Shown here: positions 12,001 to 15,000 of the stretch, in pieces
Layout: every line of letters begins with the position of its first letter
How positions within the stretch are numbered: position 1 is the stretch's first letter
NCBI GenBank assembly: GCA_038248345.1
Contig: JBBRXO010000069.1
Span: 1 to 15,023, forward strand
Direction: 5' to 3'
Origin: Armatimonadota bacterium
GTDB taxonomy: Bacteria; Armatimonadota; Hebobacteria; CAIYQO01
Length of the DNA: 15,023 nucleotides
Program-made: the position numbers

Positions 12001-15000
12001 TCACACTTATCCGTGTGGATGAGGATGGAGGCGCGGATATCGTCGAGTTCGACAATCCCCCCACCTTCATCTTCCGTGGCGGCAGCCCGTTAGAGGTTGA
12101 GCGCACCTCTCTCACTATCGGTAAATACCAACTCGCGCAGATGCACGTACAACTGGAGGAGGGAGATTACCTGATCGCTGCCAGTGACGGCCTGGTTCAT
12201 GCAGGCATCGGCGGCATCGAGCCGCTCGGGTGGCGCTGGGAACATATCGCCGAACATCTGCAGGCTTTCCTCTGGCAGGATCCGGAGGCGGAGGAAGTGG
12301 TGGATAACCTGCTGAGCGCCGCCGAAGGGCTGTATCGTGATAAAGTGGGCGATGACACCAGCGTGGCGGTGATGAAATGCCGCACCTTCCGCGAAGTGGT
12401 ACTGGCCATCGGTCCGCCTACGGACGCAACAGATGACAAGAAAATGGCCGAACGTTTCTCCACCTCCCCCGGAGTGAAGATCATCTGTGGAGGCACCACG
12501 GCGAAGATTCTGGCGCGCGAGCTAGGCCGCGAGCTGACGATGAATATCAGCCACACTGATCGTGAACTTCCCCCCACCGGCAACATGGAGGGAGTTGATC
12601 TGGTGACCGAGGGCGTGATAACTATCATGCATGCTATTGATGAGCTGGAGACCGTACGACTGCGCAAACCGCGCGCTAACGTGCATGATTTGAACTACCT
12701 CTACGGCAAGCAGAATTACCGCTCGTTGCTGCGCGACAGCGGCCGCGTCACCGCCCCCGCCGAAGAAGAAAACCCCGCGCAAACGCTGGCGCGCCACTTG
12801 CGGCTGGCCGACCGTGTCACCATCCTGCTGGGACGCGCACTAAATCCCGCCCACCAGAACCCCGCCTTGCCGGTACACCTGGGCCTAAAATTCGCCCTGG
12901 TGCAACACCTCACCGAGAAACTGAAGGCGCGCGGAAAGATGGTGGAGGTGGTGTCCTATTGATTTGGGATGCCGCCCAGCGCCCGCACGGTGAATATCAC
13001 CGGGTATAGGGCTTCGGAGTACCATAGGCTCTCGAAGTATAGCCCGATAGGTTGCGCAGGGAAGGTGGTGCCGTGGGCGGTAGCGGTGCTGAGCCAATCT
13101 ACACCGTGACTGATGGCGGTGCTGGCTGGTTCCCACCCTGTGAGCGCACAGATGACCATGCCGGTTTCCTCGATCCCACTGGCCATGCGCGGGTGAGCGC
13201 CCCAGCCGCCGTCACTGTTTTGCGCCGTCAGCAGGTAGGCGTGGGCCTTCAACTGCAGCTCGGTCACCTCCGGGAATGCTCGGGGTTCCAGCTGGCTGAT
13301 GCCATACGTCACCAGTGCGGTGCCGAAGACGGGGTTCTGTTGGTCATTGGCATACTGGCTGCCGAACCAAAGCGGTAGCCACACCCCGTCCTGCTGCTGC
13401 GCACTCGCCAGGTAAGCTAGCGCACGGTGGATCGCCCCGCGCATACGCAGTTGCAGCTTTGCCGGCACGTCATCCCACCAGGCCGCCAGCGCGGAGAGCG
13501 CCTTGCCGGTGATATCCGGGCAACTGCGGTCAAAGGGCAACTTGCCCCAGCCGCGGCAGAAGGTGGGGAAGCCGCCGTCAGCGTTCTGCAACTTGAGCAA
13601 CCAGTTGATACCACGCTCCGCCGCCACCCGCGTGGCCGGGTCATTCTCCAGCTTGCGTAGCGCCACCAGCACCGCGCTGGTGTCGTCGCCATCGGGGATA
13701 CTGCCGGGCAGGTGCGTCCAGCCCCAGCCGCCGGGGGGCGTGTCGGTCATCGGGTGCCTTTTCAGATACTGCCGCTTCAATAGCCAGGCGCGGATGGGGG
13801 CGATGGGCACGTTCGGCAGCTTCGCTTCTAGCAATGACGCTGTGGCCAGCGCCGTCATCCAGATGGAGAGGTTCATAGAGATCGGCGCGCCGCCAGCAGG
13901 GCGCATGTTCTGGCGCAGAAATTTCACCCCGTCGCGCACCAGCTCACTGTTCTTCTCGCCCGCGGCGCAGAGGAACATCACCACAAAGGCCGTCAATGGC
14001 GGGGCCGCATGGTAACCGCCGTCGGCAGGTTGCATCTGCCGGATACGCCGCAACGCCGGCCCCGTCACCAGGTCACGTAGCTGGCGCATTAGCATCCCGC
14101 CGGGTACCCGCCGCTGGCGCAACAGCCCCAGCGCCACCAGCGCCGGCAGCGCGTAGCTGACGACGTTCAAGCGCAAGGCGCTCATCAACATATGCGGGAG
14201 CACCGCCAGCTCATAGGGTAATTGTGGGATAGCCTCCCACCCGGTATCCCCCGGGCCCAGTTGCCCGGCCAGCGCGCACATTGCCAGGATGGGAGCGGAG
14301 AAGGTCTGGTCGCTGCCGTAAAGCTCATTCACCCCCCGGATAACCGCCGCCGGTTCCAGACTGTCCAGCCGCGTGGTGAGCCAGACATCCACCAGCCGGC
14401 GCGCAAACGCATACTCCGGCTTCAGCGGGTCACCAACGGTGAGCGCGGCACGGCAGAGCAGTGAAGCGCTCAGGTTACTCGGACTATCCGGCGAATCCCC
14501 CCACCCACCGTCAGCATTGATGGTGGCGGCCAGCCAGTTCAGCCCCAGCGTGATCGTCTCCCGGTGCGCCCGGGCATCCACCTGCGCCAGCGCAAAGACC
14601 GCCGTAGCCGTAGCCAGCGCGCTACTGGAAAGCTCCCCCTGCCAGAATCCGCCCGCGTTGTACTGGCTGAACAAGTAATCTCTAGCGTTATTAAGCGTCT
14701 CGGCCATGGCAGCGTTTTTCATATGGTAGACCTTTGTCTGAACCTGGATTTTCCTGATTATACCAGAACAACCCACCCCCTAAAGGAGGTGGCTAACAAC
14801 TGCAAGCACGCTAAAGCGCGCTATTTTATAACTCAATATCGCCATTCAGGGTGCTTGATCTTATAGCCACGTGCTTTAGCGCGTGGTGAGCCCATTATCC
14901 CTGAATCCTTATAATCCCACAAATCTGGGTTCAGACAAGATTGACCTTTGTCTGAACCCGGATTTTCCTGATTATACCAGAACAACCCACCCCCTAAAGG

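What a model noticed while it worked through the whole genome (the two positions that open the first line are those of the whole stretch)
12956..14722. Six-gene squalene-independent cyclic terpenoid pathway around the orphan SHC-like cyclase
The class II cyclase g1731 (intact DDTS motif) has five partners that are scattered here (C9:32208-36064 DUF116-polyprenyl synthase, prenyltransferase-beta, GT4; C25:6662-8995 radical SAM, ferredoxin) but form one operon in other bacteria. Together they likely make an oxygen-independent, radical-SAM-modified cyclic polyprenoid glycolipid without squalene. This names the pathway and substrate source for the 'SHC-like' clade of unknown function and extends it to Terrabacteria.
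Evidence so far: 52 GTDB loci of the cyclase (Planctomycetota, Verrucomicrobiota, Bacteroidota, Armatimonadota): DUF116-polyprenyl synthase next to it in 41, the ferredoxin in 35, the g924-type rSAM in 21 (another rSAM in several Bacteroidota), prenyltransferase in 21, GT4 in 11. No squalene/phytoene synthase in 0 of 12 family genomes. g924 is an unnamed B12/MiaB-like rSAM below all cut-offs. PMC12414744 (passages) calls the clade unknown and Gracilicutes-only; DUF116, radical and ferredoxin do not occur in the supplement text of PMC7306690.
(Added by a program. Inside this text positions count along the whole contig: contig position 1 is position 1 of the stretch shown here. "Call 12" and the like, gene names such as g00115 and contig names such as C1 are that model's own, and its searches are not shown. 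The text may have been shortened before it was handed on; [...] marks where a part breaks off. The agent that wrote the report below was given it as the finding of a first reader that could run no searches.)

Follow-up and report, generated by a model that had tools for sequence, protein, structure and literature searches.

The report
Orphan terpene cyclase with radical-coupling partner
This gene encodes a ring-forming terpene enzyme from a published family of unknown function, and in the genomes searched it always came with a chain-building enzyme and one of two radical enzymes related to known lipid carbon-carbon couplers, so the set likely makes a still unidentified ring-bearing membrane lipid without squalene.

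Summary
The cyclase at 12956-14722(-) is real: 588 aa, DxDD intact. It matches the published 'SHC-like' clade. Its core is five genes, not six: cyclase, DUF116-polyprenyl synthase, single alpha/alpha barrel, ferredoxin, radical SAM. In 202 Armatimonadota and Planctomycetota genomes, all 31 cyclase carriers had exactly one of two radical SAM enzymes, and none of the 171 others had either. Type A, present here, is a relative of archaeal GDGT ring synthase GrsB (25% over 469 aa), not MiaB-like. [quoted passage not shown] Both relatives make lipid C-C bonds, so a radical coupling or ring closure is the likely step. GT4 is accessory, so 'glycolipid' is weak. The synthase link and non-squalene precursor are already in print (PMC7306690 supplement), and an Armatimonadota member is already in the PMC12414744 alignment. 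This window's cyclase is atypical: it likely came from a PVC lineage and differs at four conserved cavity positions. The product is untested. This scan has reported the module before on other DNA (26 findings).

The parts
12956..14722 (-). SHC-like class II (beta-gamma) terpene cyclase, 588 aa
   Evidence: Pfam SQHop_cyclase_C 130 bits and _N 71 bits; AF2 pLDDT 94.5; best fold match A. acidocaldarius SHC, Z 37.7, rmsd 2.9, 537 aligned; motif blocks match the Fig. S10 rows of PMC7306690
13682..13693 (-). Catalytic DxDD motif (D344, G345, D346, D347)
   Evidence: Aligns to the DVDD motif of SHC; the three Asp are present in all 69 cyclases aligned
13502..13504 (-). K407 where the family has His (position of SHC H451)
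   Evidence: His in 116 of 117 relatives; position from the profile alignment; the role of H451 in activating the acid is recalled
13877..14011 (-). Segment with genus-specific changes H238, A239, A279, S282 (family L, E/D, W, D)
   Evidence: Acidic 239 in 117 of 117, W279 in 113, D282 in 116; L238 in 60 of 62; the AASK pattern occurs in 4 of 69 rows: the window, P0002, P0003 and L003
14729..15023 (.). Upstream repeat region; no pathway gene is linked. 14729-14809 recurs at 14943-15023, and 14756-14975 matches the end of contig C140
   Evidence: C140 begins with a tRNA-like gene and housekeeping genes, judged by reading its sequence

Best explanation
The gene is a member of the 'SHC-like' class II cyclase clade and co-occurs with four other genes in a module that likely builds a ring-bearing polyprenoid membrane lipid without squalene or oxygen. 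Proposed order, all steps inferred: (1) the DUF116-fused synthase extends a head-to-tail polyprenyl diphosphate, length not predictable; (2) the single barrel, shaped like a geranylgeranyl-transferase beta subunit but without conserved Cys/His zinc ligands or DxDD, binds the prenyl diphosphate and likely moves the chain to a polar acceptor or removes the diphosphate; (3) the cyclase protonates the terminal double bond with DxDD and closes several rings; (4) the radical SAM enzyme, reduced by its dedicated ferredoxin, removes two hydrogens and makes one more C-C bond, either an extra ring or a link between two chains. Step 4 appears obligatory and is done by a Grs-like B12 enzyme (type A, this genome) or an Mss-like enzyme (type B). 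GT4 is an optional addition. In this genus the operon is split in three, and the cyclase is likely a replacement copy from a PVC lineage with a remodelled far end of the cavity, so its product may differ from the family's.
For: Profile in 111 Armatimonadota genomes: cyclase 11, synthase the same 11, barrel the same 11. rSAM-A is in 8 of them and the rSAM-B orthologue in the other 3. The ferredoxin is in the same 8, and by HMM next to rSAM-B in the other 3. In 91 Planctomycetota genomes: cyclase 20, rSAM-A 4, rSAM-B 16, union exactly the 20, none in the other 71. rSAM-A against S. acidocaldarius Q4JC22 (GrsB according to PMC13023045): 25% over 469 aa, 162 bits; GrsB's best hit in this genome, E 3e-43 against 2e-7 next. 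rSAM-A forms its own clade (SH-aLRT 99) inside the Grs-like family. rSAM-B is 35% identical over 293 aa to P0463 (MBC7330093.1), with three C-terminal Cys shared. The adjacent accession MBC7330092.1 is listed as Gms in an Mss-positive genome (PMC11214058 Dataset S4), and that paper says bacterial gms clusters with mss or tes. The synthase keeps GKRxR, HKASLxHDDIED, RYG, GQG and KT. PF00494 is in 0 of 12 family genomes, 10 of which carry the cyclase. One natural barrel-cyclase fusion exists (P0119). Replacement: the window cyclase groups with a Verrucomicrobia protein (support 95-96), while its synthase and barrel group with type-A Armatimonadota (99 and 95). AU p = 0.02 against placing it in the type-A clade. 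dN/dS is 0.20 against the same-genus gene.
Against: No product or activity is known for any of the five proteins. Relatives at 25-35% identity need not share chemistry: archaeal lipid B12-rSAM enzymes also methylate and desaturate (abstract and section 9 of 10.1101/2025.10.20.683597). Types A and B may do different reactions. The Mss link is indirect; the characterised Mss sequences were not compared, and GrsA was not compared. The orthologue cut-off for rSAM-B was set after seeing the gap in E-values (1e-106 or better against 1e-54 or worse), and one rSAM-A match (G149) is partial. Kin genomes are not independent. Squalene/phytoene synthases are present in 8 of 10 carriers tested outside the family, so squalene is excluded only in part of the range. 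The second Asp-rich motif of the synthase reads NDxxD here and in about half the family. The window cyclase deviates at 7 of 131 near-invariant columns against a median of 1, so it may not be typical. The AU group was named after the tree was seen, and the trees were quick searches.
Confidence: 0.5

Rival explanations
1. One reading: a six-gene pathway whose end product is a glycolipid, with the B12 rSAM acting as a methylating or MiaB-like tailoring enzyme.
For: GT4 follows the barrel gene by 1 base here. It is present in 10 of 11 cyclase carriers against 14 of 100 others. rSAM-A has weak MiaB and B12 model hits, and sources name relatives 'B12-binding'.
Against: GT4 is next to the cyclase in 11 of 52 loci and in none of the 18 type-B loci. 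Its three closest relatives are in cyclase-less genomes. In two cyclase-less genomes it sits with a propeller/NHL/ferredoxin/NapH-like cluster. rSAM-A scores 44 bits on MiaB against 162 bits to GrsB. Type B matches SPASM/twitch-type models and no B12 model among the 25 best shown.
Confidence: 0.12
2. The rSAM step gives the cyclised hydrocarbon a polar head, like HpnH adding adenosine to diploptene, or desaturates it, instead of forming a C-C bond within or between chains.
For: A cyclic olefin needs a head group to sit in a membrane (hopanoid logic, established knowledge). rSAM-B has weak HpnH model hits, E about 1e-10 to 1e-12. Ted shows a B12 rSAM desaturating isoprenoid tails.
Against: HpnH scores are 39-46 bits against a cut-off of 225. 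The nearest characterised families of both types are C-C couplers.
Confidence: 0.2
3. The module modifies a protein or carrier: the barrel prenylates a GcvH-like carrier or another protein, on which the chain is cyclised and radical-modified. The product is then a cofactor or small metabolite, not a bulk membrane lipid.
For: The barrel's best fold matches are protein geranylgeranyl-transferase beta subunits. A GcvH-like gene lies beside the module in 11 of 52 loci, 10 of them with an ES-x-KA motif, and beside three type-B Armatimonadota loci.
Against: The barrel family has no conserved Cys or His. No GcvH-like gene was seen in the Bacteroidota loci or near the partners here.
Confidence: 0.08
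4. In this genus the cyclase has left the pathway: the transferred copy works on another substrate or is decaying, and the scattered partners act without it.
For: It is unlinked, of different ancestry from its partners, GC3 0.80 against 0.52-0.67, and has lost two acidic residues that are near-invariant in the family.
Against: DxDD is intact. dN/dS is 0.20. It is the only cyclase in a 96%-complete genome that keeps all four partners. Split arrangements recur in other carriers.
Confidence: 0.1

Closest known systems
'SHC-like' / 'Unk' clade of class II cyclases (PMC7306690; PMC12414744)
   Same: Five motif blocks match the 'Planctomycetes and others' rows of Fig. S10. Same hosts. The neighbouring polyprenyl synthase and non-squalene precursor are already proposed.
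   Different: The parts read do not name the barrel, the ferredoxin or the either/or rSAM; the Fig. S10 legend has no colour for them. The window copy carries genus-specific cavity changes.
Squalene-hopene cyclase (A. acidocaldarius SHC, TIGR01507)
   Same: Beta-gamma fold (Z 37.7), DxDD motif.
   Different: 104 bits against a cut-off of 431, 24% identity, and no squalene synthase in the host family.
Epoxy-polyprenyl cyclases (Lon15, AtoE, Bra4, PlaT2), SqhC and drimenyl diphosphate synthase
   Same: Act on head-to-tail chains. The epoxy-polyprenyl group is the sister clade in PMC12414744. DMS is the second fold match (Z 36.4).
   Different: No epoxidase among the core genes; full DxDD; obligatory rSAM and ferredoxin.
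GDGT ring synthase GrsA/GrsB (B12 radical SAM)
   Same: rSAM-A is 25% identical to GrsB over 85% of its length, and it is GrsB's best hit in the genome.
   Different: A separate bacterial clade, not the GrsB clade; tied to a terpene cyclase; substrate unknown.
Membrane-spanning lipid synthase Mss (PMC13159169)
   Same: rSAM-B is 31-35% identical to a family identified indirectly as Mss and shares the C-terminal Cys pattern.
   Different: About 70 aa shorter, a distinct orthologous group found only in cyclase carriers. Mss couples fatty acyl tails, not isoprenoids.

Membership tests
SHC-like (PVC/FCB) clade | Active-site blocks of Fig. S10 (GELSx, SYAx, xPDxDDT, GGxPTFC, GxYF, LYP) | tested here: met
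   Window GELSS, SYAL, IPDGDDTSA, GGFPTFC, GLYF, ALYPVIFT against rows
SHC-like (PVC/FCB) clade | Branches among Planctomycetota, Verrucomicrobiota and Bacteroidota members | tested here: met
   Nested among them in an ingroup-only tree; no SHC/OSC outgroup was included
SHC-like (PVC/FCB) clade | Polyprenyl synthase in the vicinity | tested here: inconclusive
   On another contig in this genome; adjacent in 41 of 52 related loci
SHC-like (PVC/FCB) clade | Family-conserved E239, W279, D282, H407 (derived here, not a published criterion) | tested here: not met
   A, A, S, K in the window and its genus mates
Squalene-hopene cyclase | TIGR01507 score above cut-off | tested here: not met
   104.5 against 431.1
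Squalene-hopene cyclase | DxDD general acid and beta-gamma fold | tested here: met
Squalene-hopene cyclase | Squalene supply (HpnCD/Sqs) in the genome | tested here: not met
   PF00494 not found in the genome or in 11 family mates
Grs family (rSAM-A, C25) | >=70% coverage, >=20% identity, E <= 1e-40 to GrsB (criterion in 10.1101/2022.08.15.504015) | tested here: met
   85% coverage, 25% identity, E 4e-48 pairwise; borderline (7e-40) at a database size of 1e11
Grs family (rSAM-A, C25) | Same thresholds against GrsA | not tested
   No GrsA sequence was retrieved
Grs family (rSAM-A, C25) | Orthology with GrsB | tested here: not met
   Own clade, separate from the GrsB clade
Grs family (rSAM-A, C25) | Cyclopentane ring formation on isoprenoid chains; cobalamin binding | not testable with these tools
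   Needs enzyme assay
Mss family (rSAM-B, other genomes) | Similarity to characterised Mss (WP_129545148.1, Tmari_0825) | tested here: inconclusive
   Indirect only, through MBC7330093.1 and Dataset S4
Protein prenyltransferase beta subunit (barrel, C9) | Alpha/alpha barrel fold | tested here: met
   RabGGTase beta best, E 4e-8, TM 0.67
Protein prenyltransferase beta subunit (barrel, C9) | Asp/Cys/His zinc site (recalled) | tested here: not met
   No Cys or His among invariant or near-invariant columns of 40 members
Head-to-tail polyprenyl diphosphate synthase (C9) | IPP-binding motif and first Asp-rich motif | tested here: met
   PF00348 130 bits; motifs conserved in 40 members
Head-to-tail polyprenyl diphosphate synthase (C9) | Second DDxxD motif | tested here: inconclusive
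   NDxxD here, DDxxE/D in most type-B loci

The most novel reading that the evidence does not exclude
The module makes a membrane-spanning cyclic isoprenoid lipid in bacteria. The Grs-like or Mss-like radical enzyme joins two cyclised or partly cyclised polyprenyl chains, giving a bacterial counterpart of archaeal tetraether cores built with a hopanoid-type cyclase. Its unjoined cores could be a biological source of tricyclic terpanes (cheilanthanes), whose pathway is listed as uncharacterised. Some bacterial 'Grs' and 'Mss' homologues counted as brGDGT genes in Planctomycetota would then belong to this pathway.
Probability: 0.15. Interest if true: 0.9.

Novelty: new variant of a known kind. 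Interest (0 to 1): 0.62.

Why it matters
The SHC-like clade is a named open question in terpenoid evolution and biomarker work (PMC7306690, PMC12414744). The strict five-gene core gives the minimal set to express. It also suggests that expressing the cyclase alone with squalene may not reveal its product. It predicts the chemistry of the unknown radical step from two unrelated enzymes that fill the same slot. A cultured carrier has the intact operon (Mangrovibacterium lignilyticum, L016). It also warns that Grs- or Mss-like hits in Planctomycetota (as counted in PMC13023045) may not indicate brGDGT synthesis; this last point is inference. The window's variant is a natural active-site comparison, but a poor first choice for defining the family's product.

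Tried and rejected
Complex prediction of cyclase with barrel: no answer, neither for nor against. PDB sequence searches for rSAM-A and rSAM-B gave only weak generic hits; NCBIfam gave no model above cut-off for either among those shown. Looking for Mss sequence motifs in the PMC13159169 supplements found none. The PQQ-propeller/NHL/ferredoxin/NapH-like cluster beside the C25 genes was considered as further partners and set aside: it also occurs without the cyclase (L108, L110), and the propeller family is in 19 of 52 loci. ORFs between ferredoxin and cyclase in single loci were unrelated (patatin, YkuD, NIF3). Chain length could not be read from the synthase motif. An AU test on the narrower family group did not finish; the broader test did. 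Literature searches: cheilanthane+cyclase (2 papers), SHC-like+Planctomycetes+radical SAM, DUF116 (swamped by DUF1162; whole word, 2 papers), tricyclic terpane terms, SHC+polyprenyl synthetase+radical SAM+ferredoxin (4 papers, listings only). None showed the five-gene module in title, abstract or the passages read. Subscription papers, bioRxiv supplements, the PMC11214058 SI PDF and the drawn synteny of Fig. S10 could not be seen and may bear on novelty. Expression was not examined.

Full report
Observation. The window holds a 588-aa ORF at 12956-14722(-) with Pfam SQHop_cyclase_N and _C domains and the motif DGDDTS. It is single-copy. The AF2 model (pLDDT 94.5) matches A. acidocaldarius SHC best (Z 37.7, rmsd 2.9, 537 aligned), with drimenyl diphosphate synthase close behind (Z 36.4). 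TIGR01507 gives 104 bits against a cut-off of 431. The genome belongs to Armatimonadota, judged from the named closest record and the kinship table. Upstream of the gene lie only repeats, and the overlap with the end of contig C140 suggests housekeeping genes follow, so the gene is truly unlinked.

Clade membership. The text layer of Fig. S10 of PMC7306690 lists active-site blocks for the 'Planctomycetes and others' rows. The window protein matches them block by block. In ingroup trees it nests among PVC and Bacteroidota members. The same supplement states that a polyprenyl synthase is usually nearby and that the precursor may not be squalene. PMC12414744 calls the clade of unknown function and lists Gracilicutes only, but its supplementary alignment has an Armatimonadota row, MEA3403623, with the same N-terminal blocks. 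The DUF116-synthase fusion is mentioned in PMC5898192, which predicts a Cys-rich, flavodoxin-like electron-transfer domain.

Neighbourhoods. 52 GTDB loci gave, by tblastn, synthase 41, ferredoxin 35, barrel 31, rSAM-A 22, GT4 11. Family HMMs gave 40, 35, 38, 21 and 11, plus a second rSAM family in 18 loci that never shares a locus with rSAM-A. Two gene orders dominate: ferredoxin, rSAM-A, cyclase, synthase, barrel; and ferredoxin, rSAM-B, synthase, barrel, cyclase. One database protein fuses barrel and cyclase (P0119). Where the cyclase stands apart, the synthase was found elsewhere in 4 of 5 genomes tested.

Whole-genome profile. In 111 Armatimonadota genomes the cyclase, synthase and barrel occur in the same 11. 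rSAM-A and the ferredoxin occur in 8 of these and in none of the other 100. The remaining 3 have rSAM-B orthologues (E 1e-143 or better) beside a ferredoxin. In 91 Planctomycetota genomes the cyclase occurs in 20, rSAM-A in 4 (one partial), rSAM-B orthologues in 16, with no overlap and none in the other 71. Together: 31 of 31 carriers have exactly one type; 0 of 171 non-carriers have either. The rSAM-B cut-off was set at the gap seen in the results, and related genomes are not independent. GT4 behaves differently: 24 of 111, with 10 of 11 carriers and 14 of 100 non-carriers. It is enriched but not exclusive, and absent from all 18 type-B loci. PF00494 was not found in 12 of 12 family genomes, of which 10 carry the cyclase. 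It was found in 8 of 10 carriers outside the family.

What the radical enzymes are. The second tier of rSAM-A relatives (27-36%) includes archaeal B12-binding rSAM proteins from Bathyarchaeia, Odinarchaeum, Thermoprotei, Acidilobus and Thermoplasmata. Searching from one of them retrieved S. acidocaldarius Q4JC22, named GrsB in PMC13023045. rSAM-A aligns to it at 25% over 469 aa and is its best hit in this genome by a wide margin. In a 92-row quick tree rSAM-A is a separate clade within the Grs-like family. rSAM-B has a second tier at 30-34% in 31 Armatimonadota genomes. One member falls in a 90% cluster with MBC7330093.1, whose neighbouring accession is a Gms from an Mss-positive genome in PMC11214058 Dataset S4. 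That makes the tier Mss by inference; the characterised Mss proteins were not aligned. GrsA/B close cyclopentane rings in biphytanyl chains, and Mss joins fatty acyl tails (PMC13459092 sections 2.4 and 2.2). A C-C bond made from two C-H bonds is the reaction these families share, so I take it as the likeliest step. Desaturation, adenosylation and, for type A only, methylation remain open.

Other proteins. The synthase keeps the motifs of head-to-tail enzymes and several conserved Cys in DUF116; its second acidic motif is NDxxD. The barrel model (pLDDT 96) matches Rab geranylgeranyl-transferase beta best. Its invariant residues are D50, Y52, Y53, Y130, D221, S224, D270, E272, T274 and Y276, with no Cys, His or DxDD. 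It likely binds prenyl diphosphate, but its reaction is the least constrained step.

The window copy is atypical. It and its close relatives have A239, A279, S282 and K407 where 113-117 of 117 relatives have E/D, W, D and H; 4 of 69 aligned cyclases show this pattern. These positions align to SHC G260, W302, Q305 and H451; that these segments line the cavity and that H451 supports the acid is recalled. dN/dS against the same-genus gene is 0.20 (rSAM-A 0.07). The cyclase groups with a Verrucomicrobia protein, away from its family's cyclases (AU p 0.02, group named after the fact), whereas the synthase and barrel group with type-A Armatimonadota. A replacement by transfer, followed by cavity change, best explains the isolation of the gene.

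What I read. PMC7306690: abstract, section 9, passages, supplement passages and parts 78-79. PMC12414744: abstract, sections 5, 6, 7, first part of 9, supplement search and part 39 (rows cut). PMC11214058: passages, supplement search, Dataset S4 part 1. PMC13159169: passages, supplement search. PMC13459092: abstract, sections 2.2 and 2.4. PMC5898192: section 3.6. 10.1101/2025.10.20.683597: abstract and first part of section 9. Passages only: PMC13023045, 10.1101/2022.08.15.504015, 10.1101/2025.07.29.667474, 10.64898/2026.01.29.702649, PMC6770870. The searches listed under Tried and rejected did not show the five-gene module in print.

Earlier findings of this scan. 26 findings in at least 25 genomes describe the same module; two of those shown already say 'Grs-like' and one notes the either/or rSAM. 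I reached these points before the look-up and tested them here. No finding held the word Mss together with the cyclase terms.

Verdict. A real, strictly conserved and uncharacterised five-gene terpenoid module around a published orphan cyclase clade. The cyclase-synthase link is in print. The obligatory Grs-like or Mss-like radical step and the transferred, altered copy in this genus are the additions. The product is unknown. New variant of a known kind; interest 0.62.

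Noticed in passing
window 9622-12962 (+): Small 2Fe-2S thioredoxin-like protein, [FeFe]-hydrogenase-like protein with FeS and PAS domains, and a SpoIIE-type phosphatase: looks like a sensory hydrogenase cluster of anaerobes (the family name is recalled). It ends tail to tail with the cyclase.
   Followed up: no
window 6227-7715 (+): A 180-aa MmeI-like methyltransferase fragment followed by a Bro-N protein; lower GC, possibly a mobile remnant.
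   Followed up: no
window 684-3250 (+), 4508-6064 (+), 8841-9395 (-): Aconitase-family protein, Fic-domain protein, L-aspartate-oxidase-like flavoprotein and LemA.
   Followed up: no
window 14729-15023: An 81-base direct repeat and a hairpin-like element with many copies across the genome; 14756-14975 matches the end of C140, so the contig end may be a collapsed or duplicated repeat.
   Followed up: partly
L002:7146-13797 (G000 C25): Cluster of PQQ-type propeller, NHL, ferredoxin, NapH-like membrane Fe-S protein and second propeller, divergent from the ferredoxin-rSAM pair. It recurs beside the module in several Armatimonadota and also with GT4 in cyclase-less genomes.
   Followed up: partly
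L009:6908-7363, L077, L078, L080, L115: GcvH-like gene next to the module in Verrucomicrobiota, Gemmataceae and type-B Armatimonadota; an ES-x-KA motif is kept in 10 of the 11 members checked.
   Followed up: partly
L069, L070, L071, L074, L075: Mss-like gene directly beside a second SPASM-type rSAM, probably Gms, in Armatimonadota genomes without the cyclase: candidates for bridged membrane-spanning lipids.
   Followed up: partly
L001:8816-10102: The GT4 family has a conserved N-terminal MYCGAC motif, unusual for GT4 to my recall.
   Followed up: no
L028: An Anaerolineales (Chloroflexota) record also carries cyclase, synthase and part of rSAM-A.
   Followed up: no
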